From NCBI RefSeq assembly GCF_009914755.1, contig NC_060935.1: a DNA stretch of 64,000 nucleotides, one strand, 5' to 3'. Within the stretch, counting starts at the first letter, position 1; each line of letters opens with the position of its first letter. A model generated the notes under the pieces. The model was not told the DNA's origin, made no database searches, and saw nothing but the letters and a program-made list of their open reading frames with translations. Source of the stretch: the human T2T-CHM13v2.0 reference genome, Homo sapiens. Of the stretch, positions 43,716-58,640 are shown piece by piece. The translations under genes and the position numbers were made by a program.

Positions 43716-44113
43716 TTTCATGCGCATCCGTGTGAAGAGACCACAAAACAGGCTTTGTGTGAGCAATAAAGCTGTTTATTTCACCTGGGTGCAGGTGGGC
43801 TGAGTCCAAAAAGAGTCAGCGAAGGGAGATAGGGGTGGGGCCATTTTATCAGATTTGGGTAGGTAAAGGAAAAAGGGATGTTCTCTGGCAGGCAGGAGTG
43901 GGGGTCACAAGGTGCTCAGTAGGGGAGCTTTTGAGCCAGGATGAGCAAGGAGAAGGAATTTCACAAGATAATGTCATCAGTTAAGGCAGGAACAGGCCAT
44001 TTTCATTTCTTTTGTGGTGGAATGTCATCAGTTAAGGCAGGAATCGGCCATCTGGATGTGTACATGCAGGTCACAGGGGATATGATGGCTTAGCTTGGGC
44101 TGAGAGGCCTGAC
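43716..44113 (-). repeat. HERV-H 3' LTR (LTR7)
   Basis: TGTCAGGCCTCTCAGCCCAAGC..CACACGGATGCGCATGAAA; PPT GAAGACAGGAA. Confidence 0.95.
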
Positions 44114-44770
44114 ATTCCTGTCTTCGTACATTAATAAGAAAAATAAAATGAAATAGTAGTGAAGTGTTGGGATGGTGAAAAATTTCTGGGGGTAGTATGG
44201 AGAGATAATGGGCGATGTTTCTCAGGGCTGCTGCGAGTGAGATTAGGGGTGGCATGGGAACCTAGAGTAGGAGAGATTAAGCTGAAGGAAGATTTTGTGG
44301 TAAGGGGTGATATTGTGGGGTTGTTAGAAGAAACATTTGTCGTGTAGAATTATTGGTGATGGCCTGGATACGGTTTTGTATGAACTGAAAAACTAAACGG
44401 AATAAGAGAAGGAGAAAAACAGGTATTAAAGGACGAAGAATTGGGAGGACCTAGGACATCTAATTAGAGAGTGCCTAAGGAGGTTCAGCATAGCCTTGCC
44501 AACAAAGATTATTTATTTAAGAGTTAAGAGTGGTGGTTTGGGGATAGCACCAGGAGATATCACCTGTGATGGTTTGGAGAAACAGTGTAAACCACCAGTG
44601 AAAACAAGAGCAGGGCATATATGAGTAGTTGAGAACGGTGAATAGGAGTATGACTAGACAGAAGATAGTAGGGATGACAAGTTTTTTGGGGCACAGTCCA
44701 AGTTGGTCTTGTGTCTGGAATGAGACTGGGGCCTAATAAAAAGGAGCTTCTATAGGGGAGATCCAATGGG

Positions 44771-45836
44771 TATCGGGGGACCTGCCCCGATAATCACGTA
44801 GGTTCTTTTCTATTTTCCTGTGTCGACTGGCTTGAGAAATAAAAGGACAGAGTACAAAAAAGAGAAATTTTAAAGCTGGGCGTCCGGGGGAGACATCACA
44901 CATTGGTAGGATCCGTGATGCCCCACAAGCCACAAAAATCAGCAAGTTTTTATTAGGGAGTTTCAAAAGGGGAGGGAGTATACGAATAGGTGTGGGTGAC
45001 AGATATCAAGTACTTAACAAGGTAATAGAATATCACAAGGCAAGTGGAGACAGGGCGAGATCACAGGACCACAGGACCGAAGTGAAATTAAAATTGCTAA
45101 TGAAGTTTTGGCACCATTGTCATTGATAACATCTTATCAGGAGACAGGGTTTTGAGATCAACCGGTCTGACCAAAGTTTATTAGGCGGGAATTTCCTCTT
45201 CCTAATAAGCCTGGGAGTGCTATGGGAGACTGGAGTTTATTTCACTTCTGCAATCTCGACCATAAGAGACAGGTACGCCCTGGGGGGGCCAGTTCAGAGA
45301 CCTATCCCTAGGTGCGCATTCTCTTTCTCAGGGACGTTCCATGCTGAGAAAAGGAATTCAGCGATATTTCTCCCATTTGCTTTTGAAAGAAGAGAAATAT
45401 GGCTCTGTTCTGCCCGGCTCACCGGCGGTCAGAGTTTAAGGTTATCTCTCTTATTCCCTGAACAATTGCTGTTATCCTGTTCTTTTTTCAGGGTGCCCAC
45501 ATTTCATATTGCTCAAACACACATGCTGTACAATTTGTGTAGTTAACGCAATTATTACAGGTCCTGAGATGATATAAATCCTTCTTGGCTGACAGGATTA
45601 AGAGATTAAAGCAAAGACAAGCATAGAAAATCACAAGGATATTGATTGGGGAAGTGATAAGTGTCCATGAAATCTTTACAATTTATGTTTAGAGATTGCA
45701 GTAAAGACAGGCATAAGAAATTACAAAAGTATTAATTTGGGGAACTAATAAATGTCCATAAAATCTTCACAATCCACGTTCTTCTGCCATGGCTTCAGCC
45801 GGTCCCTCCGTTTGGGGTCCCTGACTTCCCTCAACA
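44771..45836 (-). mobile_element. MER11 (HML-8) solo LTR, MER11C-like
   Basis: TGTTGAGGGAAGTCAGGGACCCCAAACGGAGGGACCGGCTG..CCCCCGATA, 1066 bp, perfect 6-bp TSD AATGGG. Confidence 0.92.
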
Positions 45837-45842
45837 AATGGG

Positions 45843-46985
45843 TTGTACCTTGTAGCATTCCGAGGACAGGCCTGAATTCTGAGAAGGGAAAGTGGTAAAA
45901 GTATTGTCCAGTCCTTTTTAAGTTGGTGGCTGAGCTTGGTAAGGTGTGTTTTTAAAAGACCATCAGTCTGTTCTACCTTTACTGAAGACTGAGGACTGTA
46001 AGAAATATAAAGGTTTCACTGAATACTAAGAGCCTGAAAAAATGCTTGGCTGACTTGATTAATAAAGGCTGGTCTGCTATCTGACTGTATAGAGGTGGGA
46101 AAGCCAAACTGAGGAATTATGTCTGACAGAAGGGAAGAAATGACCGTGGTGGCCTTCTTAGACCCTGTGGAAAGGCCTCTACCTATCCAGTGAAAGTGTC
46201 TACCTAGACCAAGAGTTATTTTAGTTTTCTGACTCGGGGCACGTTGAGTAAAGCTAATTTGCCAGTCCTGGGTGGGGGCAAATCCCTGAGCTTGATGTGT
46301 AGGGAAGGGAGTGGGCCTGAAGAATCCTTGAGGAGTAGTAGGATAGCAGATGGAACACTGAGAATTGATTTCCTTGAGGATAGATTTCCACGATGGAAAG
46401 GAAATGAGAGGTTCTAAGAGGCGGGCTGGTGGCTTGTTCTATAGCATAGCCTGCTTTTGCTGGTGTGTGGCGATTAGGCCTGGTGGAACCGCCATCAATA
46501 AACTAAGTGTGGTCAGGGTGAGGAACAGGGAAGAAGGAAATGTGGGGAAATGGGGTGAATGTCAGGTGGATCAGAGAGATGCAGTCATGAGGGTCAGGTG
46601 TGGTATCAGAAATAATGTGGAAGGCCGGATTGAAGTCCAGGCCAGGAACAATGGTAATTGTGGGAAACTCAACAAAGAGTACAGCAGAAGGAGCCGGGGA
46701 GCAGAATGTATATGTGGCAGGTGTGAGGAAGAAAATAGATTTCGGAAATTATGAGAGCTGTAGAGAGTGAGTTGAGCATAGTTTGTGATTTTAAGGGCCT
46801 TTAAAGTATTAGGGTGGCAGCAGCTGCTACACAGAGACATGACAGCCAACCTAAAACAGTAAGGTCAAGTTGTTTGGACAAAAAGGCTACAGGACGCGAT
46901 CCTGGTCCTTGTGTAAGAATTTCAACTGCACAGCGCTGCACTTCGGCTGTGTGTAATGAAAAGGGTTGGGATGAGTCACGGAGAG
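45843..46985 (-). pseudogene. pol: HERV-H pol 3' part (RT connection/RNase H/IN remnants)
   Basis: ALRDSSQPFSLHTAEV..PVAFLSKQLD continues directly from 55176. Confidence 0.85.
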
Positions 46986-46989
46986 CTAG

Positions 46990-47486
46990 TGTAGCAGGAC
47001 GAGTTGCAGACAAAACTCCTCAGACACCGGATTAAAGAAGGAAGAGGTTTTTTTATTCGGCCGGGAGCGTCGGTAGACTCGTGTCTTAAGAGCCGAGCTC
47101 CCTGAAAAAGAAATTCCTAGCACTTTTAAGGGCTTACAACTCTAAAGGGTCTACGTGAAAAAGTCATAATAGATCAAGTAAGCCTGAGGAACGTGACTGG
47201 GGGCTACATACTTCAGCTAACAGAACAAAAAGTTTTTACAGTGCTTTCTCATACAATGTCTGGGATTTACAGATAACACCTGTAGTTTTGGTCAGGGGTT
47301 AATATTATTGTCATTTTAACCACCAGGGCCAGGTGGTGGCGCCAAGGTCATCTAGCTATTTATTTTACTTCTGTTTTTTCCAACTTTTTGCTTTCTCCCT
47401 TTTTTGCTGTCTTACAAACTAGGGAAAAGGGGAGGTTGGGGAGAAACTGGGAAGGACAACAGGAGACGTGGTGGTCTCACACCATA
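46990..47486 (-). repeat. HERV-E 3' LTR (LTR2C-like)
   Basis: TATGGTGTGAGACCACCAC..GAATAAA..GTCCTGCTACA, 497 bp; PPT TCAAAGGGGGGAAA. Confidence 0.9.
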
Positions 47487-47513
47487 TTTCCCCCCTTTGA
47501 GCATTTTCACTTT

Positions 47514-49567
47514 TTAGTGGGAGTTCTCACTCTCATCTTTACTTTTTGAGTCTATTGGTGAGATAGAGCGATACTGATTTATATAACACACGTGTGCTGA
47601 AGTTTTCTGATGAACCAAAGTAGCTACAAAACCTTTTATCATTTGAAAAAGCAAGGGTAATACACAGGGGAGCAGCAAGCAAGCTCCTATCACTAGCAAT
47701 ACACCTACAATGAGGGTTTTAAATCCTGCTATAGCTGGAAACCATTTTTCAAATAAAGACTCAGGATTAAACTCGTGCCAAACCTGTACAGGCACATGTG
47801 CCACCTTTGTCATGTCCCTGACTATGTTTTTAACCACCTGTCCTTGATCATTTATTTGTAGGCAGCAATTGGTTAAGTTAAATTTTCCACAAACTCCTCC
47901 TTCAGCTACTAGCAAGTAGTCTAAGGCCAGTCTATTCTGATAGATAGCATTCCTCATTTGGGTTTCTTGCCAAGCTAAAACAGTCAAAGCTCTGCCAGTT
48001 TCATTAGTAATTATTTCTAAGATGGCCTGCAACCGTATGATCCAATTGAGCATGTAGATGGGGGTTCGGTATCCCCATGAGCCGTCTTGTGCCCATGTGG
48101 CAGGCCCATAATACTGAATGATCCTTTCAGGGGGCCACTCATTCTCCTTCCAGTTTCCTATAACTATGCCTTTCTTTTCTCGGGCGGCGTAGACAGGGAA
48201 ACCTAGGAGCTCACCCGTTTTTATGGGTAATAAGAAAAAGGATGGCTTAATAGTGTCAATAACACAACTGCCTGCCCATTTATTAGGTAACCGAATGTAG
48301 GCTCTGTGCCTACATATCTAGTATAGTCCAGCGGGAACCGTCCAGTCCTGATGAGATTCTGGATGAGCCTAAGCAGTTTTTAATTTAGAAAATTTACTAA
48401 ATGGATTCTTTTCAGTGTGGTTTAGGCCCTACTAAGTAATTGTCTGTATTGTGCTGTTATACAACTTCTGTCCTATACAATTAAGCTTTCCTACAGGGAT
48501 GATAAAGTCTTTCCCTTCTCTAGCTCTACAGTATTGTCTAATAATTGAGGTTTTTAGGACCTAGAAGTTGCTAGCTTCGGCCTTCTGAACTGGAATTATA
48601 TCAGGAGCTGGATCAGTAGGCACCAACTCTTGGGCTTCCCAAGGCCATCTGTCTCCGATAGTGGTTCCTCCGCGTACATAACAAGAAGTAACAGTTATGT
48701 AAGTAAGAAAATTACATTTTCTGCTAATTGGAGAAACAAATTTTTTGTCTTTTTCAGAAGTTCTGGTGCTGGCACATTCAGCTCCTCATAAAAGGTTTGA
48801 AATACTGGTTTGGGAGAGCACTTGTGGACCTCCCCTCTAATTACAATGGCAACTTGAGGGTTTAACCCTGTCCTATTGATCCCCAGGGTTACACGTTCTC
48901 CCTTTTTCCAACGGGGATCTAGGGGATTGGTAATTATTAGTTCTAGTGGGTTACAGTGACTGGCAGCACAGGAGGGGTTGGCTTCCCCCTTCTGAAGATA
49001 AACCGGTTCCTTTTTGTTCTTTTTTTAAGTAGCCTAAATAACACATGGCCAATAGGCACAATTTTTACAAACCCCTGACTCATGACAAACATATTTATTT
49101 TCTACTCTTTAGCTCCTTTCTCAGTTAAGAGAACCACATCCTATTTCTAGCTTTTTACTATTAATGGCTGCACAAGCATCAAATCTTAAAGTTATTTGCT
49201 TGGGAATTTCTTTTTCTTCTGTTCTAGTTATTATTTTACTTGTATCATCTAGGAAAAGGCCAGTTCTTATTCTTATTTCAAAAACGGTGGTTGCGGAGGG
49301 CTCAGATGGGTTATAACACGCATCAGGTCGGTCATTTCTCGGGCTACATACCTTGCACTGAGTGGCATTATACAAACAAGTTTCTTTTATTGTTTCCACA
49401 CATTCATAATAACTATAGAACAGAAAGATTGTTTTAATTTGCTGTCCTACTTCGGTGACCTGATGAATACACTGGGAACAGTCCCCAGTTTGAGTAAGAT
49501 CAGTTGAAGCCCTTACTGTATAAGTCCAAAATTTAAGAAAAATGAATCTCACGATGAGCTTCCTCAG
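47514..49567 (-). pseudogene. env: HERV-E env (SU disrupted, TM frame open)
   Basis: [16 protein letters not shown]6CC ([10 protein letters not shown]), TM helix; presumed ATG reads CTG; SU stops. Confidence 0.92.
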
Positions 49568-49589
49568 GCTTCGGCCGTGCGTGGACCAG

Positions 49590-52500
49590 TCAGCTTCCGG
49601 GTGTGACTGGAGCAGGGCTTGTCGTCTTCTTCAGGGTCACTCTGAAAGGGTTGTCTGGGCTTGGTCTTGCCTCCCAGGTTTCACGCGCTGCAGGTTTTAC
49701 ATGGCTGTGGTGGATCCAGGCTGGGATTCCTTCTACCTTCACAGCGGTGGGAGGGCTCAGAACGACAGTCTGGGGTCCTTTCCACAGTGGACACAAAGAG
49801 GCTACGTTCCAGTTCTTGATCCACACTCGATCACCTGGGGAGAAAGGGTGAACTGGGGAGAATAAGCTAACAGGCCATTTACTCAGGCTGAGATTGTTTG
49901 TGTAATTTTTCCTAAGGCCTGTAGCTGTCGCTGTAACTCAATTTCACCTAACTCTCAGGGAGTGCCTGGAAGTCCCCGCAATATAGGAGGGGGCCTATGA
50001 TATAATATTTCATAAGGGGAATATCCTGCTCTTTTAGAAGTGGTACATCTAATTTTAAATAATACCATAGGGAGAGCCTGTATCCATTTTAATCCTGTTT
50101 CCTGACATACTTTCCCTAAACTATTTTTGATAGTTTGATTCATTCGCTCCACCTTTCCGGAACTCTGAGGCCAGTAGGCAGCATGCAGTTTCCATGTGAT
50201 CCGTAATATCTTTGCCGCCTTCTGTACTAAGTCAGCCACAAATGCCGGCCTGTTATCTGAGCCGATCCGTAAGGGCAGTTCAAATCTAGGAAGAAGATCT
50301 CGAAGAAGCACACGAGTTACTTCACGAGCTTTCTCAGTTCGTGTTGGATAAGCCTCCACCTACCCAGAGTAGGTACGCCCAAGAACTAGTAAATACTTGT
50401 TACCTCTACACTTTGACATCTCTGTGAAGTCCACCTGGAGATCTTCAAAGGGGGCTGCTCCATAAGCTTGTATGCCGGGTGGAACGGCTGGACATTGCCT
50501 CGCATTATGCTGTGGGCAGGTAACACACCACTGCGTCACCGTTTTGGCAAGAGCTGACAAATGCGAGATGTAGAAATACCGGCCTAACAACTTTTCAAGT
50601 GACTCCTGACCTCGATGGGTGGTTTCATGCACAGCCAGTACAACTGCAGCTCCTAGCAGCTGTGGCGCAGCTTCTCTCCCATCCGGTAACCGAATCCATC
50701 CCTCCTCCATCACTTGTCCTCTCTCTGCCTGGAGGAAGTCCTTTTCTTCTTTAGAATAAGTAGGTACAAGATCAGGTGCTTGAGGGAGCATGGGGGCTGT
50801 GACTGATGCCCGGAAGGGGGCAGACGCTGCTTTTCGAGCCTCTAAGTCAGCGGGGGAATTCCCTAAACCCAGCAAGGTGGAAGCTCGCTGGTGTCCCCTG
50901 CAATGCATAACTGCCACCTTGTGGGGTCTCCATATGGCTTTTAACAATTGCAAGATTTCTTGTTGATATTTTATGTCTTTTCCCCCAGAGTTCAATAGGC
51001 CCTTTTCTTTATATAATGCTCCACGCACTTGAAGGGTTGAAAAGGCATATTGAGAGTCAGTGTAAATGTTGACATTCTTAGCTTCACTGAGTTCTCAGGC
51101 CCGAAGGAAAGCAATGACTTCAGCTTTCTGAGCTGAAGTGCCCTGGGGCAATGATCTGGCTTCAGCAACAGTGTCCAGAGTTACCACCGCATATCTTGCA
51201 CATCTCTCTCCTTGTGGGTTGATGAAGCTGCTCCCAGCCACGTATAGTTCCTAGTCTACTGGTGCCTAAGGCTGGTCCTGGAGGTTAGGTCTGCTAGAGT
51301 AAACTGAGCCCAACACTTCTACACAGTCATGCTCGACAGGGCTCTCTGATACTGGGAGCAAGGTAGCGGGGTTCAGCGTGTTACAAACTTCATTGGTTAT
51401 ACGGGGATTTTCACAGAGCAAACTTTAGTACTTAGTGAGTCTAGCATTCATTAGCCAATGATGTCCTTTAGTATTCATTAAAGTCACCACAGCACGGGAG
51501 GCCTTTATGTTCAGGTTTTGCCCAAGAGTCAGCTTATCTGCTTCTTGTACTAGCAGGGCAGTTGCTGCCAAGGCCCTCAAACACGGGGGCCATCCTTTAG
51601 AAACCCCGTCTAGTTGTTTAGAGAGGTAGGCCACCGGCCTCAGCCAGGGCCCCACAGTTTGGGTTAAAACTCCAACTGCTATCTTTTCTCTCTCTGACAC
51701 ATACGATGGAAAAGGCTTTGTTAGATCGGGTAGCTCCAGGGCTGGGGCTGACGTAAGTTTTTCCTTTAACTCATGAAAGGCTTGCTGTTGCTGGGATCCC
51801 CATTCAAAACGTTCCCTGTCCCCCCCCAACCCCTTTGTGACCTCATACAAAGGCTTGGTTTATACTGCAAAGTTTGGGATCTACAGTCTGCAAAACCCCA
51901 CAGCCCATAAGAATTCTCTCACCTGCCTTCTGGTCTTAGGCTCTGGTAGATTTCAAATGACCTGCTTTCTTTCTGATCCTAGGCTGCTCTCCCCCTTTTG
52001 GATAGTAAATCCTAAGTAATGTACCTGCTGTCGGCAGATCTAAGCTTTTTTCTTGGACATCTTATACCCACAGCCCTCCAGGTGCCGGAGTAGAGCATCT
52101 GTTCCTTTGGTGCACCCGACTGCCGTGGGGTGTCCCAGCAAAAGATCATCAATGTACTGGAGCAACACGCAGTCTAGGTCTCTGGTGGGAAACTTCTGGA
52201 GGTCTCGAGGCAATGCCTCCCCGAAGATGGTGGGGGAGTTCTTGAACCCTTGGGGAAGCCCGGTCCAAGTGTACTGAGTAGTGACACCTGACTCCGGATC
52301 TTCCCACTGAAAGGCAAACAGCTTCTGGCTCTCAGGGGCTAATCTGATGCTGAAGAAAGCATCTTTCAGGTCCAAGCAGGTGAAGCAGCTGTCCTCAGCT
52401 GGCAGCAACCCCAGCAATGTGTACGGGTTAGGTACTGCTGGATGTAAAGTCACTGTAGCTTGATTAACCAAGCGCAAATCCTGTACCGGCCAGTAGTCCT

Positions 52501-53036
52501 TGGTCTTAGGCTTGGGAACAGGCAGGAGGGGAGTGTTCCATGGAGACTGACAAGGAACTCTGATTCCAAAAGTTCTTAGGTGCTTGAGATGGACCTGGAT
52601 ACCTTCAAGAGTTTCTCTGGGGACCGGCTCCTGTTTTTGCCTAACCGGCTGGGCCCTAGGCTTAACTGGCCAATCCTGGAGGGTTGTCTTTTGCCCATGA
52701 CTTTAGCAGCAAGGAGCCATGCTCTGTAAAAGAGATAGTGGCTCTCAGTTTGCTAAGCAAGTCCCTTCCAAACAAGCACAAGGGACAGTCAGGTGTGTAC
52801 AAAAACTGATGAATCACTTTATGTCCTCCTACAGCACAAGTCCGGGGCAAGCAGAAAGCTTGCTTTGCTGAAACTCCTGTGGCTCCAATGATGTCAATAA
52901 TCTTTTTGGATAAGGGGGTGACCGGGGCGGTTACTACCGAATGTTTAGCTCCGGTATCTACAAGAAAATCAATGTCTTTACCCCTAACTGTCATCCTGAC
53001 CATAGGCTCTTTAGGGGTCCTTGAGCCCAGTCCCCC
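49590..53036 (-). pseudogene. pol: HERV-E pro-pol (disrupted)
   Basis: FLVDTGA, LDLKDAF, LPQGF, YIDD, HHCC (HETTH..CVTC), LQVDF..SDN..KVER. Confidence 0.95.
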
Positions 53037-54626
53037 TCAGTCCAATAACCCTTCTGCCAGGTTGAGCAGGGTGCCTTCATCCTTGTCCGGGGCCTCCTGC
53101 TCTGAGTCACCTTGTTTTCTTTTTAGCTGAGGGCATTTGTTTTTCCAATGTCCTATTTCTTTACAATAAGCACACTGATTACGCTGCAAGCTCTGACAGC
53201 CAGGCTGAGTTTCCTTTCCAGGGCCCCCCTTCCCTTGCCTCTTTTGGGGGACCCCTCTGATTGCTGCCGCTAACAGGTCGGTGTTTCGCTGGGCCTGACG
53301 TTCATTGTCTCTGTGGTTTTCCTTACGGCTTACTGCATCCCTGTTTACAAACGCCTGGTTAGCTATTTCTAATAACTGTGATGTGTTCATCCCTGCAAAC
53401 TCAGCCTGTTTCTGCAGTTTTCTTCTAATGTCTTCTGCGCTTTGGCTAACTAAAGCCATGTTAATCATGCCTTGATTTTCAGGGCTATCGGGATCAAAGG
53501 GAGTATACATACCATAGGCCTCACACAGACTCTCCTACAATTGTGCTGGACTTTCTTCTTTTCTCTGAATGACCTCAGAGACTTTGTTAACATTTGTGGC
53601 CTTCTGGGCTCCCCTCTTTAATCCTTCCAAGAGAGCTTCCCTGTCTCTGTTTAGCCTTTGCATATCCTCTCTTTCATGTGGGTCCCACTGGGGGTCAGTT
53701 CCTGGTAACTGGGTCCTTACATACTCTTGGGGGTTTTGGTAATCAGCTGGTGCATGTTCCTCTAGCCACTTAGTTGCCGCTTGGAGCACTCTCCACCTTT
53801 CATCTGTGTTAAAGAGGAACATGAGCAACTGGTGGCAATCAGCCCAGGTGGGGTTATGGGTCTGGATAATAGTTTGGAGCAAATCAATCAGAGCTTGTGG
53901 CTTTTCGGTACAGGATGGGGTATTGTCTTTCCAGTTGAGAAAGTGGGCAGAGGTGAAGGGCTGGTACCCAAAAACACACCTCCCCACCACGTGACCATCC
54001 TCATATATCCCAGTATACCGCTGCTCTCTCAGGGGCATTTGTGTCCCCGTTTTGGGTCTTAAACGAGCTGCCAAGGGAGGGGTTTCTCCCGAGTCCTCAC
54101 CTCCTCTCTTGTCTACTCTGGGTGGCCTAGGGATATGTTTGTCTTGTGGAGGCACAAGCACTGTGGACTCAAAAGTGGGGAGCCTGCCTCCCTGGTAAGG
54201 AGAGGGCACCACTGAGATCACTGGTGCCATCTCCTGCAATGGATCTTCTGATGCTGGGTCGAACAGAACTTCAGGAGTTGATTTCCCTCGGCGGGTGGAG
54301 CGGGATCCTTCCTTGGCTATCTGTCACTTTGCTACTAGCGCTGCTGCTGCCTGCCCTCTTAGCCACTGTGGGGGGTTTAGCATCAGCTGTAACCAAGTGT
54401 CTATGTGTGGAAACTGGTCTGAGTGTCCTGACTTACCAGTTATCTTGTGCCATACCTTAGAAACAAGGGACCTGTCCAGGCTTCCTTCTGATGGCCATCC
54501 TACTTCTAATGTTGGCCAATCTATTTCACACAAAGTTCTAAGTTCCCCAAAGTCTCCATTAAATCCTCTCTTAAAATTTTTCAACATAGTTCCTAGGGGA
54601 GTAGGCTTACTTTGTATCTGACCCAC
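53037..54626 (-). pseudogene. gag: HERV-E gag (disrupted)
   Basis: GTG-GQIQSKPTPLG, WPSEGS, HNPTWADCHQLL, CAYCKEIGHWKNKC. Confidence 0.93.
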
Positions 54627-55150
54627 GTTTCCTCGAGACAAAACACCAAGCTCACACCACACGCACACCACAGAACAAAGAATGGGTAAAAAGGGCACAC
54701 ACACACTTTTTCAGTTTTCACCAAACCAGAATCAAAACCAAAATCAGAGTATCCAGAAATCCATGCCAGGTCAAACCAAAACCAAAGTATCAAGCAATTC
54801 AAGTCAAGCCAAAAACAAAAACCAAAGTGCCAGTACAGGCACGCCGTGGGTGATCAGGCCACGCTTCCACTCAAATGGAGTGGGCAAGTTCCAAAGACCA
54901 GTCTTACCAAGTTTCAAATGTCCGGACTCCAAGTGCCTCTTCCTTCCCTGTGTTCAGCCACTGTGTTGATCCTCCATGGGGGCCTACCACACACTGCTCT
55001 GACGAGGCATTCCTCCGGGGCAATTGCTTACCCGGGAGAGCTCTCAGGATCCGCATCGCTCAAGCTGGCCGGAGTCCCCCGCAGGGATGCTCCACAGGGC
55101 AGGCCTAAGCCACCTAACGGGCTGCCTCGACTTTCCGTCAATTACCTCGC

Positions 55151-55168
55151 TTCCCGGTCAGGGAACCA
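55151..55168 (-). other. tRNA-Glu primer binding site (HERV-E)
   Basis: TGGTTCCCTGACCGGGAA. Confidence 0.93.
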
Positions 55169-55175
55169 AGACTAG

Positions 55176-56290
55176 GGTGGGGGCAGTCTTTAAAGCTGTC
55201 TTCAAGGAACAGAAAGAGGAGTGGGGAAAGGATTTAGGATCTATGGGGTCAGCTAGGTTTCCTTTTGTGAGTTTATATAATGGTTTTATTAGGATGGCAA
55301 AACCAGATATCTAAAGATGAAAGTATCCAACCATGCCCAGGAAGGAAAGGAGTTGTTGTTTTGTAGAAGGGGTTGGGGTTTGAGAGATTAGTCACACACG
55401 ATCGGCAGGGAGAGCATGTGTGTTTTTATGAGAATTATGCGGAGATAGGTAACAGAGAAGGAAGAAATTTGTGCTTGACTGAAGTAATGGGGGCTGTCTT
55501 TGAAGCTTTGCAGCAGTACAGCCCAGGTAATTTGCTGAGCCTGATGGGTGTCAGGTTCAGTCCAAGTGAAAGTGAAGAGTGGCTGGGATGAAGGGTGCAA
55601 AGGAATAGTAAAGAAAGCATGTTTGAGATCCAGAACAGAATAATGGGTTGTGGAGGGAGGAATTGAGGATAGGAGAGTATATGTGTTTGGCACCTTGGGG
55701 TGGATAGGCAAAACAATTTGGTTGATAAGTCATAGATCCTGAACTAACTTGTAAGGCTTGTCTGGTTTTAGGACAGGTAAGATGGGGGAATTGTAAGGAG
55801 AGTTTATAGGCTTTAAAAGGCCATGCTGTAGCAGGTGAGTGATAACAGGCTTTAATCCTTTCAAAGCATGCTGTGGGATGAGATATTGGCATTGAGCTGG
55901 GTAAGGATGATTAGGTTTTAATGAGATGGTAAGAGGTGCATGATAGGTCGCCAAGGAGGGAGTAGAGGTATCTTCTACTTGTGGGTTAAGGTGGGTGGCA
56001 ATGAGATGTAGCTGTAATCCGGGAATAGTCAGGGAAGCAGATAATTTAGTTGAAGTGTCTCGGCCTAATAAGGGAACTGGGCAGGTGGGGATAACTAAAA
56101 AGGAGTGCTTAAAAGAGTATTGTCTATGTTGGCACCAGAGTTGGGGAGTTTTAAGAGGTTTAGAAGCCTGGCTGTCAATACCCACAACAGTTATGGAGGC
56201 AAGGGAAACAGGCCCTTGAAAAGAAGGTAATGTGGAGTGGGTAGCCTCTGTATCGATTAAGAAGGGGATGGACTTACGCTCCACTGTGAG
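55176..56290 (-). pseudogene. pol: HERV-H pro and 5' pol
   Basis: FLIDTEAT (DTG>DTE), GRD, SPYNSPILPV, VLDLKHAFF; YxDD region absent. Confidence 0.9.
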
Positions 56291-56459
56291 AGTAACCTAG
56301 AGCGTCTGTGATGGTCCTGTAGGCTTCCGAGGCGATCGATCGGGCAGTGTCGGTCTGCAGCTGCTAAGCCAAGAAGATCTGGGAAGGAGTCAGTCAGGGA
56401 GCCTTGGGCTGGAGATCCAGGGGCTCTGGGAGTGGCTGCCAGGTGAGTTGAACAGTCCG

Positions 56460-57540
56460 ATTTCTAGTGGGGTCCCGCACAGATGGGACATGGCTTAGGA
56501 GGAATCCCGTGTTGCAGGCATTCCTTGGCCTGGTGGCCAGATTTCTGGCACTTGTAGCAAGCTCCTGGGAGAGGCGGTTCTGGAGGAATGCCTGGCCACT
56601 GCGCTTTAGGTGTTTGGAAGCTCTTGTGTGTTGGAGATGTGGCTGGGGTTTGTCTCAGTGGAGGCAAGGAATTGCAACTGAGAAATATGTTGCTACTTGG
56701 CTGCCTCTACTCTATTATTGTACACCTTGAAGGCGAGGTTAATTAAGTCCTGTTGTGGGGTTTCAGGGCCGGAATTTAATTTTTGGAGTTTTATTTAATG
56801 TCGGGGGCAGATTGGGTAATAAAATGTATACTGAGAATAAGATGGTCTTTTGAACTTTTAGGGTCTAGGGCTGTAAAGCATCTCAGGGTTGCTGCCAAAC
56901 GAGCCATGAACTGGGCTGGATTTTTATATTTGATGAAAAAGAGCCTAAACCTTATCTGATTTGGGATAAAGAAAAAGGAGCATTAACCTTGACTATGCCT
57001 TTAGCTCCAGCCACCTTTTTAAGAGTAAATTGCTGGGCAGGATGGGGAGGGCCAGTCACGGAATGAAACTGTAAGCCAGACCCAGTGTAAGGAGGGGAGG
57101 TGATAAAAGGATTATAGGGTAGAGGAGCAGAGGCTGAGGAAGAATTGGGACATAGCTCAGCCTGGCAAGGAGGGGAGAGGTCAGATGGGTCTGTAGAAAA
57201 GGAAGATTAGAAAGTCTCAGCGACACTTGGGGTTGGGACTGAGGGGACAGGTGGGAGGGAAAGAAAGATTTGGGATGAGTTGCATTGGGAACAGAGACTA
57301 GGGAGGGACCCATGTGTAAAAGAATGCCTGGACGTCAGGCACCTCAGACCATTTGCCCATTTATGACAAGAATTATCTAGATCTTGTAGGATGGAAAAAT
57401 TGAAAGTGCCATTTTCTGGCTATTTGGAACCACTGTTGAGTTTGTATTGGGGTCAAGTGGCATTGTAGAAGAAAATAAGGCATTTAGGTTTTAGGTCAGG
57501 TGTGAGTTGAAGAGGTTTTAGGTTTTGAAGAACACAGGCT
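56460..57540 (-). pseudogene. gag: HERV-H gag remnant
   Basis: CYKCQKSGHQAKEC and CPICAGPH* zinc knuckles. Confidence 0.8.
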
Positions 57541-58268
57541 AATGGAGAAGAAAGGGGAATGGAGGGTGGAAGCTTGCCCATAATGAAGGAGGCAAGCCTA
57601 GAGAAAAGAGAGAGTAGAGACACAAAGAGTAGGGGTGGGGTGGTCTTGCCTTCCAGAAAAGCAGGAAATGGGTTGGGGCACAGAAATAAAGGGTTGGAGT
57701 GCAGAGATAGGAGGTCAGGTTGTGGAAATAAGGGATCAGGGCACAGAGATAAGAGGGCGGGGCATAGAAATAAGGGATCGGGGTGCAGAGATAAGAGGGT
57801 GGGGTTCCTGTGCCTCCCCCAGAAAAGCAGGACTTGCCGCTAAGGGTGAAGGACCAAGGCAGGCGTCCCTGCATGGTCTGACACCTCTGAAACCTGGGTG
57901 AATAATCAGAGGCGTCCCTGCAATGATTAAACGCCAAGGGAAGGCTGCCTTCCCTAGTCCATGACCGGCACCAGAGTTTTGGGTCCACGGATAAAACGTG
58001 TCTCCTTGGTCTCTACCAGAAAATGAAAGGAATTGAAATTAAGAGAAGGGAGAGATTGAAGTGTGGTGCCAAGACTGAAAGGAGGAAGAGGTTGAGGGAT
58101 AGTGAGGGAGGTTGGAGAAGAGAGTAAAAAGAAGCTGCTTCCCAGATTTGAAATTGGTGAGATGTTTCTTGGGCTGGTCAGTCTGAGGACCTGAGGTCGT
58201 AGGTGGATCTTTCTCACAGAGCAAAGAGCAGGTGGACAGGGGATTGATCTCCCAAGGGAGGTCCCCCA

Positions 58269-58286
58269 ATCCGAGTCACGGCACCA
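58269..58286 (-). other. tRNA-His primer binding site (HERV-H)
   Basis: TGGTGCCGTGACTCGGAT, intact. Confidence 0.95.
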
Positions 58287-58288
58287 AA

Positions 58289-58640
58289 TTTCACATGCAT
58301 CCGTGTGAAGAGACCACCAAACAGGCTTTGTGTGAGCAATAAAGCTGTTTATTTCACCTGGGTTCAGGTGGGCTGAGTCCAAAAAGACAGCCAGTGATGG
58401 GAGATGGGGTGTGGCCATTTTATAGGATTTGTGTAGGTAAAGGAAAATGGGGGGTTGTTCTCTGGCAGGCAGGAGTGGGGGTCACAACGTGCTCAGTAGG
58501 GGAGCTTTTGAGCCAGGATGAGCAAGGAGAAGGAATTTCACAAGATAATGTCATCAGTTAAGGCAGGAACTGGCCATCTGGATGTGTACGTGCAGGTCAC
58601 AGGGGATATGATGGCTTAGCTTGGGCTCAGAGGCCTGACA
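58289..58640 (-). repeat. HERV-H 5' LTR (LTR7) with a 51-bp U3 deletion
   Basis: Direct repeat of 43716-44113 lacking one U3 repeat unit; TATAAAA present. Confidence 0.95.

What the first reader, a model, noticed from the sequence alone, without database searches (positions are those of the whole stretch)
46986..55175. HERV-E integrated with no 5' LTR yet with a clean TSD: possible fossil of aberrant reverse transcription
Seen (minus strand): HERV-H pol ..GCCCCCACC-CTAG | TCT-TGGTTCCCTGACCGGGAA (PBS) .. gag-pol-env .. LTR-CTACA | CTAG-CTCTCCGTGACTCATCC. Removing the insert restores continuous HERV-H pol (TAPTLALRDSSQPF), so no host DNA was lost and the element starts 3 nt before the PBS. A later deletion would have had to remove exactly the LTR and spare the TSD. 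Inference: integration of a DNA that failed second-strand transfer (minus strand ends near the PBS), or of a 1-LTR circle opened at the U5/PBS junction. The HERV-E is left under the HERV-H promoter. I recall dispersed HERV-H/HERV-E hybrids being described (Lindeskog et al. 1998; verify) as a 3'-deleted HERV-H next to HERV-E. This window instead shows a nested insertion with the HERV-H 3' half retained.
Basis: partly seen in the sequence, partly recalled or inferred. Interest (0 to 1): 0.78.

Follow-up and report, generated by a model that had tools for sequence, protein, structure and literature searches.

The report
One-LTR HERV-E nested in HERV-H
An ancient HERV-E retrovirus copy sits inside an older HERV-H copy with a normal 4-base target duplication but no left-hand LTR, which is best read as a fossil of faulty reverse transcription and integration, although the nested element itself is already in the literature.

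Summary
On the minus strand, HERV-H pol reads ...CCCACC-CTAG, then TCT, then the tRNA-Glu primer binding site (PBS). An 8,182-nt HERV-E follows (gag-pro-pol-env, PPT, one LTR ending CTACA), then a second CTAG and the rest of HERV-H pol.

- Uninterrupted HERV-H copies carry this tetramer once: CTAG in 18 of 19, CTCG in 1.
- The same HERV-H provirus is found at 15 loci. Eleven have the same LTR-less junction, four are empty with one CTAG, and none has a 5' LTR.
- The 11 filled copies form one clade (99/95 support), so this was a single insertion later spread by segmental duplication.
- Canonical HERV-E reads ...CTACA-TT-TCT-PBS. The missing piece is therefore the LTR plus TT, and TCT is viral.

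Best explanation (about 0.6): a HERV-E DNA that never gained its 5' LTR, with its left end at the U5/PBS border where minus-strand DNA ends before the second strand transfer. Its U5 end was joined by integrase with the family's 4-bp stagger. A later deletion would need two exact breakpoints.

The nested HERV-H/HERV-E/HERV-H element is already published as part of the "type II DA" duplicon. Only the mechanistic reading may be new. Scans found no second example. Interest is moderate.

The parts
58289..58640 (-). HERV-H 5' LTR (LTR7). Host flank ...GGAAGAG precedes TGTCAGG. Followed by TT and the PBS-His at 58286-58269.
   Evidence: Direct-repeat pair with 43716-44117. Sequence read.
55176..58288 (-). 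HERV-H 5' internal part: leader, protease (55733-56296), and reverse transcriptase (55391-55729) running on to the insertion point. Degenerate, with stops.
   Evidence: Pfam RVP 1.5e-9 and RVT_1 1.9e-6. Translation.
55172..55175 (-). Left copy of the 4-bp target-site duplication, CTAG. This is HERV-H sequence.
   Evidence: Of 29 other HERV-H matches, 26 end at this G (query position 109); 1 ends 2 nt earlier and 2 run 14-15 nt further.
55169..55171 (-). TCT, the last 3 nt of the HERV-E spacer between U5 and the PBS. First bases of the insert.
   Evidence: all 19 canonical HERV-E 5' ends have TT plus three more bases before the PBS (TCT in 17, TCA in 1, TTT in 1). The TT and the LTR are absent here.
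55151..55168 (-). HERV-E primer binding site, complementary to the 3' end of tRNA-Glu. The tRNA assignment is recalled, not tested.
   Evidence: The same 18-mer pattern occurs at 114 canonical loci.
47487..55150 (-). HERV-E internal region: leader, gag (MA 54327-54710, p30 53040-54323), protease 52665-53036, RT 52043-52702, RNase H 50363-51859, integrase 49593-50359 plus the zinc finger in 50363-51094, env TM 47517-48317, PPT AAAGGGGGG(AAA) 47498-47487. All genes are split by stops or frameshifts.
   Evidence: ORF list. Pfam hits Gag_MA, Gag_p30, RVP, RVT_1, RT_RNaseH_2, RNase_H, zf-H2C2, rve, MLVIN_C, TLV_coat. Sequence.
46990..47486 (-). The only HERV-E LTR (3' LTR, LTR2 family, 497 nt). Starts TATGGT and ends CTACA. 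AATAAA lies near 47055.
   Evidence: Alignment with three 5' LTRs. LTR starts. Single copy in the window.
46986..46989 (-). Right copy of the target-site duplication, CTAG.
   Evidence: 10 of 10 paralogues.
44115..46985 (-). HERV-H 3' internal part. The pol frame continues as ALRDSSQPFSLHTAEVQRC...
   Evidence: BLAST to other HERV-H copies.
43716..44114 (-). HERV-H 3' LTR (LTR7), ending ...GCGCATGAAA and followed by AGGAG. The 5' flank ends AAGAG, so the 5-bp duplication matches at 4 of 5 positions.
47032..50534 (-). RefSeq lncRNA LOC105376526, lying wholly inside the HERV-E. It has a GT donor after 50404 and an AG acceptor before 49834. Its 3' end lies about 20 nt past the LTR's AATAAA.
   Evidence: Hub annotation. 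Splice sites read. Poly(A) signal.

Best explanation
This is one germ-line integration of a HERV-E DNA that never acquired its 5' LTR.

Proposed steps:
1. Minus-strand DNA was copied to the end of the RNA template, which is the PBS plus 3 leftover U5-side bases (TCT). The second (plus-strand) transfer, or the strand-displacement synthesis that builds the left LTR, then failed. Equivalently, a one-LTR circular intermediate opened at that discontinuity. The product was a linear DNA: TCT-PBS-gag-pro-pol-env-PPT-U3-R-U5.
2. The U5 end was processed and joined by the viral integrase at its normal CA.
3. The other end, the raw 3'-OH of the minus strand, was joined 4 bp away on the opposite target strand. 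This was done either by the same intasome using a non-cognate end, or by host end-joining after a 4-bp staggered cut.
4. Gap repair produced the CTAG duplication.

The target was the pol gene of a HERV-H provirus already resident in a duplicon, in the same orientation. The composite was then copied to at least 11 loci by segmental duplication.

Shown: the structure, the duplication, the empty sites, the single origin, and the viral origin of TCT.
Inferred: the reverse-transcription failure, and which enzyme joined the left end.
For: 1. The right end is a normal integrase product. The LTR ends at CA and abuts CTAG in the window and 9 paralogues. The duplication is 4 bp, the length gammaretrovirus-type integrases give with high fidelity (PMC2857682 passages: 13 of 15 XMRV proviruses).
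2. No target base was lost. Pre-insertion paralogues of the same HERV-H provirus read ...CCCACC-CTAG-CTCTCC (L020, L081, L089). The fourth empty copy, chr3:75.5M, is inferred from abutting hits.
3. The left end lies where minus-strand DNA ends before the second transfer. TCT matches the canonical spacer, and the LTR plus TT is absent.
4. It was a single event. All 11 copies share the junction. They form one clade on 1,329 nt of upstream HERV-H sequence, excluding the 3 empty paralogues (UFboot/SH-aLRT 99/95).
5. A deletion has no help from homology. The only shared base at the junction is one T. Annealing at the TGGT shared by the LTR start (TATGGT) and the PBS would give CTAG-TA-TGGT, which is not what is seen.
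6. There is precedent. [quoted passage not shown] 7. The U3 end of this family is itself non-canonical: it is TA, not TG, in 11 of 11 5' LTRs. This suggests relaxed left-end recognition.
Against: - This is a single historical event, and nothing here observes reverse transcription.
- No second example was found. Scans for a tRNA-Glu PBS without an LTR end upstream returned only the hybrid copies, plus point mutants or other families, against 114 canonical loci.
- For HERV-H, 0 of 5 and 0 of 4 candidates qualified, against 58 canonical loci. Each scan could see only about 40-55% of such elements.
- In cell culture, host-joined aberrant ends usually come with much larger duplications or deletions and some microhomology. 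The clean 4 bp therefore requires the less documented idea that the intasome itself used, or cut for, a non-LTR end.
- The U5 end of such a DNA would carry 5 extra bases (TTTCT), or a PBS overhang, that integrase must remove.
- TCT can also be read as host sequence, because HERV-H continues CTAG-C-TCT.
Confidence: 0.6

Rival explanations
1. Normal two-LTR integration into HERV-H pol with a CTAG duplication. Later, before the first duplication of the composite, an end-joining deletion removed exactly the 5' LTR plus TT.
For: 5' truncations of old proviruses are common (general knowledge). One T of microhomology exists at the junction: the LTR starts with T and the retained sequence starts with T. 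All copies descend from one ancestor, so a single early deletion would be invisible today.
Against: The left breakpoint must fall exactly at the host/LTR border, and the right one inside the 5-nt spacer. For random breakpoints over a ~500-nt LTR and an ~8-kb body, my estimate is about 1 in 10^5-10^6 deletions. No homology-driven route gives the observed junction: CTA/CTA annealing would leave CTACATTTCT, and TGGT/TGGT would leave TA-TGGT. No paralogue keeps the LTR (0 of 15).
Confidence: 0.2
2. One-ended integration of an ordinary full-length DNA. Integrase joined U5, and host polymerases and repair trimmed the U3 end back and joined it. On this reading the 3' AGA of the trimmed strand primed on the host TCT just downstream (CTAG-C-TCT). 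That gives an 8-bp duplication, CTAGCTCT, from which one C was skipped.
For: The model and its features (truncated viral end, short homology, host duplication) are described for ASLV and HIV vectors (PMC5041404). The host sequence does read CTAGCTCT, so 3 nt of homology is available.
Against: It needs an extra 1-nt loss, present in all 11 copies. It also needs trimming to stop by chance at the U5/PBS border. The 4-bp reading needs neither, and it fits the family's normal duplication length.
Confidence: 0.12
3. Integrase-independent capture of a HERV-E DNA fragment at a chromosomal break with 4-nt 5' overhangs that were filled in. Alternatively, a replicative template switch copied it from another locus.
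For: CTAG is palindromic. Filled-in staggered breaks can give short duplications (general knowledge).
Against: Both fragment ends coincide with retroviral landmarks: the CA of U5, and the spacer 3 nt before the PBS. No donor flanking sequence is carried. The 4 bp equals the gammaretroviral stagger.
Confidence: 0.05

Closest known systems
HERV-H/HERV-E/HERV-H element of type II/III 'DA' duplicons (Li et al. 2009, PMC2700803). Related: the HERV-H/HERV-E hybrids of Lindeskog et al. 1998, known to me only as a title in that reference list plus recall.
   Same: This is the same object. [quoted passage not shown] The paper dates it to 14-7 Myr (passages).
   Different: The passages I read say nothing about the missing 5' LTR, the CTAG duplication or a mechanism. 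Ji & Zhao 2008 and Lindeskog 1998 were not readable, so this may already be in print.
Aberrant 'one good end, one bad end' integrations of ASLV and HIV-1 vectors (Hughes laboratory; PMC5041404)
   Same: One viral end is joined normally at CA. The other end is not an LTR terminus, and viral sequence is missing there.
   Different: Those events usually show large duplications, deletions or rearrangements of host DNA and microhomology at the bad end. Here the duplication is the normal 4 bp, homology is 0-1 nt, and the bad end sits at a reverse-transcription landmark.
One-LTR circles and the circular plus-strand-transfer intermediate of reverse transcription (PMC13332604 passage)
   Same: The content and order match: PBS-gag-pol-env-PPT-single LTR. 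There is a strand discontinuity at the U5/PBS border.
   Different: These forms are regarded as dead ends that do not integrate. Here such a genome is found integrated in the germ line.
LINE-1-made processed pseudogenes of HERV-W (PMC5016936, search listing only)
   Same: Both are proviral copies lacking complete LTRs yet flanked by duplications.
   Different: Those start in R, end in R with poly(A), and have long variable duplications (recalled). This one has a complete U3-R-U5 ending at CA, no poly(A), and a 4-bp duplication.

Membership tests
HERV-E (gamma-like ERV, LTR2 family) | PBS complementary to tRNA-Glu, preceded by the family's spacer | tested here: met
   The 18-mer at 55168-55151 is identical or near-identical to 19 other HERV-E loci. 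TCT is retained.
HERV-E (gamma-like ERV, LTR2 family) | gag-pro-pol-env in gammaretroviral order | tested here: met
   Pfam Gag_MA, Gag_p30, RVP, RVT_1, RNase_H, rve, MLVIN_C and TLV_coat in order on the minus strand. All are broken.
HERV-E (gamma-like ERV, LTR2 family) | Two LTR2 LTRs | tested here: not met
   Only the 3' LTR (46990-47486) is present. It is the single LTR2 match in the 64 kb window. No paralogue has a 5' LTR.
Canonical concerted retroviral integration | Target-site duplication of the family's length, with no loss of target | tested here: met
   CTAG is on both sides of the insert and occurs once in empty paralogues and other HERV-H copies. The 4-bp norm is taken from PMC2857682 and PMC2700803. 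HERV-E's own norm was not measured here.
Canonical concerted retroviral integration | Both junctions at LTR termini | tested here: not met
   The right junction is at CTACA. The left junction is at TCT-PBS, 2 nt inside the spacer.
One-ended integrase insertion with host-mediated second end | Abnormal host duplication or deletion, and microhomology at the aberrant end | tested here: not met
   The duplication is the normal 4 bp with at most 1 nt of shared sequence. It would be met only under the alternative 8-bp-minus-one reading.
LINE-1-mediated processed ERV pseudogene | Starts in R, ends in R-poly(A), long duplication | tested here: not met
   It starts 3 nt before the PBS, ends at the U5 CA, and has no poly(A).
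Type II/III DA duplicon HERV-H/E/H element | The same HERV-E/HERV-H junctions at the dispersed duplicon loci | tested here: met
   11 loci have the left junction and 10 have the right junction, on chromosomes 3, 4, 7, 8, 11 and 12. This matches the description in PMC2700803.
Unfinished reverse-transcription product (no plus-strand transfer, or one-LTR intermediate) | Left end at the 3' end of minus-strand DNA (U5/PBS border), with a single complete LTR at the other end | tested here: met
   The structure fits. That the end was actually made by reverse transcriptase is not testable with these tools.

The most novel reading that the evidence does not exclude
A retroviral intasome carried out a normally spaced, concerted integration in the germ line using one true LTR end and one non-LTR end, the 3'-OH of unfinished minus-strand DNA at the U5/PBS border. 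That end looks like the family's odd U3 end (T-x-TGGT). If so, completion of reverse transcription is not an absolute precondition for heritable integration. PBS-initiated one-LTR proviruses would then be a rare but real class of endogenous retrovirus.
Probability: 0.3. Interest if true: 0.6.

Novelty: new variant of a known kind. Interest (0 to 1): 0.42.

Why it matters
Aberrant integrations are known from engineered vectors and drug-treated infections in cell culture. There they usually damage the target.

A natural, fixed, about 10-20-million-year-old provirus that begins at the primer binding site yet has a perfect family-length duplication would be a rare germ-line record. It would show which failed reverse-transcription products can still be inserted, and how tolerant the integrase complex is of a non-cognate end.

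It also explains why this HERV-E has no promoter of its own. It can only be transcribed from upstream, as the title of Lindeskog 1998 implies with 'spliced hybrid transcripts'.

The practical weight is limited. It is one event, the composite element is already described, and two family-specific scans found no further cases.

Tried and rejected
**Second examples**
- V+TCT+PBS scan: 12 hits. Ten were hybrid copies and two were ordinary HERV-E with a point change in TT.
- Two scans demanding non-LTR bases further upstream: only hybrid copies, plus 7 unrelated or variant loci. Of those 7, three belong to another family ending ..ATAACA, two are LTR2-end variants still carrying CATTTCT, and two are TGGCT[A/G]GGAA sites that were not followed up.
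- HERV-H scans: 5 hits were tRNA-His-like retro-fragments or isolated 18-mers, not HERV-H. Four hits all keep the LTR7 end.

**Displaced 5' LTR in the window:** none.

**Microhomology-mediated deletion** at CTA/CTA or TGGT/TGGT: the predicted junctions do not match the observed one.

**Recombinant-genome origin** (template switching between co-packaged RNAs): rejected. The insert carries a complete U3-R-U5, and four paralogues of the same HERV-H integration lack the insert.

**Apparent 'CTA' after CTACA at two other LTR2 loci**: judged a ranking bias of the search, which favours hits that extend into the query's flank.

**Papers not held:** Lindeskog 1998; Oh 2006 and 2008 and Varadarajan 2013.

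**Other:** The HERV-E review PMC4379568 (term search) returned no occurrence of 'HERV-H', '11p15' or '8p23'. Supplements of PMC2700803 were not opened.
Full report
**What is in the window**

Everything below is read on the minus strand.

A HERV-H provirus spans 58640 to 43716. Its two LTR7 copies are the direct-repeat pair 58289-58640 and 43716-~44114. Its flanks read ...GGAAGAG|TGTCAGG and ...CATGAAA|AGGAG, a 5-bp duplication matching at 4 of 5 positions. After the 5' LTR come TT and a tRNA-His-type PBS.

Inside its pol gene the sequence reads ...AAGACTGCCCCCACC-CTAG-TCT-TGGTTCCCTGACCGGGAA.... About 8.2 kb further on it reads ...GTCCTGCTACA-CTAG-CTCTCCGTGACTCATCC....

Between the two CTAG copies lie 8,182 nt, made up as follows:
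- a tRNA-Glu-type PBS (the tRNA assignment is recalled, not tested);
- gammaretrovirus-like domains in order: Gag_MA, Gag_p30, RVP, RVT_1, RNase H, integrase zinc finger, integrase core, MLV-type integrase C-terminus and the env TM part, all cut into stop-bounded pieces;
- a polypurine tract;
- one LTR of the LTR2 family, 46990-47486.

No other LTR2 copy exists in the 64 kb.

The HERV-H frame runs ...SLKTALKTAPT, then L, then ALRDSSQPFSLHTAEV....

**The duplication is real and no target was lost**

In one search, 40 of 652 candidates were scored. Eleven hits span the left junction. Of the other 29 HERV-H hits, 26 stop at the G of CTAG; one stops 2 nt earlier and two run 14-15 nt further.

Nineteen uninterrupted HERV-H loci were fetched. 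All 19 read ...CCCACC-CTAG-CTCTCC or a one-base variant, with the tetramer present once (CTAG in 18, CTCG in 1).

A stronger test uses the junction between this HERV-H's 5' LTR and its host flank. That junction is found at 15 loci (40 of 2,400 candidates scored). Eleven are the HERV-E-bearing loci. Four are not: chr4:9.64M, chr4:4.00M, chr3:128.6M and chr3:75.5M.

Three of those four were already in hand and read as empty sites with a single CTAG (L020, L081, L089). The fourth is inferred to be empty from two hits that abut on CTAG. Two of the three, L020 and L089, align over all 1,329 nt upstream of the site, and L081 over the first 738 nt. Unrelated HERV-H copies align only from position ~500. 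These loci are therefore paralogues of the same provirus, that is, pre-insertion alleles.

**One event**

All 11 copies carry CTAG-TCT-PBS. Ten carry LTR-end-CTAG-CTCTCCGTGACTC: CTACA in 8, CTACT in 1 and TTACA in 1. The chr8:12.76M copy did not appear among the 40 scored right-junction hits and was not pursued.

A maximum-likelihood tree was built on the 1,329 nt of HERV-H sequence upstream of the site. It places the 11 filled copies in one clade (ultrafast bootstrap 99, SH-aLRT 95), apart from the three empty paralogues and five unrelated HERV-H copies. Paths from that clade's root to its tips are about 0.02-0.03 changes per site. This is roughly Miocene, depending on the rate assumed.

The published PCR survey puts the HERV-E-bearing duplicon type at 14-7 Myr: present in gorilla, chimpanzee and human, but not orangutan (PMC2700803 passages).

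**What exactly is missing**

Nineteen other HERV-E 5' ends all read ...CCTGCTACA-TT-NNN-TGGTTCC, with the three bases being TCT in 17, TCA in 1 and TTT in 1.

The TCT at the left junction is therefore viral, and the missing piece is the LTR plus TT.

There is a caveat. HERV-H continues CTAG-C-TCT after the site. The left junction can therefore also be parsed as an 8-bp duplication, CTAGCTCT, that lost its C, with the provirus then starting at TGG. This parse needs an extra event and an atypical duplication length, so I rank it lower.

**Why a later deletion is a poor explanation**

The left breakpoint would have to fall at the host/LTR border. The right one would have to fall within the 5-nt spacer.

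LTR2-family LTRs begin TA (TATGG.. or TAAGG.., 11 of 11). The only homology at the junction is therefore a single T. Annealing at the CTA shared by CTAG and CTACA would leave CTACATTTCT. Annealing at the TGGT shared by the LTR start and the PBS would leave CTAG-TA-TGGT. Neither is observed.

My rough estimate for random breakpoints is 10^-5 to 10^-6 per deletion. That is small even across all human proviruses. None of the 15 paralogues keeps a 5' LTR, but all filled copies descend from one ancestor, so this does not exclude an early deletion.

**Most likely mechanism**

The right end is an ordinary integrase product: U5 ends at CA next to a 4-bp duplication. Four base pairs is the length that gammaretroviral integrases produce with high fidelity (13 of 15 XMRV proviruses; uncoordinated joining gives variable lengths; PMC2857682 passages).

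The left end lies where minus-strand DNA ends after copying the PBS and before the second strand transfer builds the 5' LTR. [quoted passage not shown]

I therefore read the insert as a one-LTR DNA, TCT-PBS...U3-R-U5. Its U5 end was joined by integrase. Its other 3'-OH was joined four bases away, either by the same complex or by host end-joining after a staggered cut.

In cell culture, DNAs with one bad end are inserted at up to 30% of normal efficiency. Typically, though, this comes with large duplications or deletions and short homology at the bad end (PMC5041404). The clean 4 bp here points to the intasome geometry rather than to free host repair.

Two sequence features make a non-cognate left end less far-fetched:
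- The family's natural U3 end is already non-canonical (TA).
- The natural left end (TA-TGGT...) and the observed one (TCT-TGGT...) look alike.

All of this is inference.

**Search for more cases**
- Genome-wide, the tRNA-Glu PBS with the canonical T before TCT occurs 114 times.
- With a non-T there are 12 hits: 10 hybrid copies and 2 ordinary proviruses with a point change.
- Two scans requiring non-LTR bases further upstream gave 9 of 9 and 10 of 17 hybrid copies. The other 7 were different families, LTR-end variants or unrelated sites.
- For HERV-H, 5 hits were tRNA-His-like fragments rather than HERV-H. Four more hits keep the LTR7 end. This compares with 58 strictly canonical loci.

Each scan sees only about 40-55% of possible cases and needs an intact PBS. 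The negative result is therefore weak, but no class of such elements emerged.

**What is known**

The composite is published. [quoted passage not shown] It counts 13 type II and 5 type III copies, and cites Lindeskog et al. 1998 on co-amplified HERV-H and HERV-E with spliced hybrid transcripts.

I found no statement about the absent 5' LTR with an intact duplication, or about a mechanism. However, the two papers most likely to hold one (Lindeskog 1998; Ji & Zhao 2008) could not be read, and four full-text searches returned nothing on it.

**Verdict**

The object is already described, and only the mechanistic reading may be new. Interest is moderate.

Noticed in passing
L042-L058 (5' LTR starts) and window 47482-47486: LTR2-family LTRs begin with TA (TATGG.. 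or TAAGG..) rather than the usual TG in 11 of 11 5' LTRs. The base just upstream varies. The LTRs end in the usual CA.
   Followed up: partly
L042-L060, just upstream of the PBS: HERV-E has 5 nt (TTTCT) between the LTR's terminal CA and the PBS, where the window's HERV-H has 2 nt. The unintegrated U5 end would therefore carry 5 bases beyond CA.
   Followed up: no
window 46979 (minus strand, 7 nt after the right CTAG): All 10 HERV-E-bearing copies read CTCTCCGTGAC. The three empty paralogues and 16 of the 19 other HERV-H copies fetched read CTCTCCCTGAC, and none of the 19 has the G. This is a clade-specific C-to-G change right next to the insertion. It could be a repair scar or simple lineage history.
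   Followed up: no
window 58289-58640 vs 43716-44114: The HERV-H 5' LTR is about 47 bp shorter than the 3' LTR (repeat offsets 14573 vs 14526). The flanking 5-mers AAGAG and AGGAG differ at one base.
   Followed up: partly
L093-L102 (chr7:131.0M, chr8:144.2M, chr18:12.4M, chr20:59.1M, chrX:83.5M): These are 18-mers identical to the tRNA-His-type PBS, mostly preceded by T runs, and not followed by HERV-H. At least one (chr20) continues as a reverse-complemented tRNA-His-like sequence, and the others break off after 18-30 nt. They look like retroposed tRNA 3' fragments.
   Followed up: partly
chr1:89.05M, chr10:103.07M, chr13:84.19M: Another element family uses the same tRNA-Glu-type PBS, after an LTR end ..ATAACA and a 5-6-nt spacer.
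   Followed up: no
window 47032-50534 minus: The RefSeq lncRNA LOC105376526 is built entirely from HERV-E sequence. It has a GT donor in the integrase region, an AG acceptor about 570 nt downstream, and its end lies at the LTR's poly(A) site. The annotated 5' end lies inside pol, so the model may be 5'-incomplete.
   Followed up: partly
window 55944-56279: A repeat-masked ~340-bp stretch lies inside the HERV-H 5' part. It appears to be shared by the paralogues, because unrelated HERV-H copies align only beyond it. It marks the paralogues as copies of one provirus.
   Followed up: no
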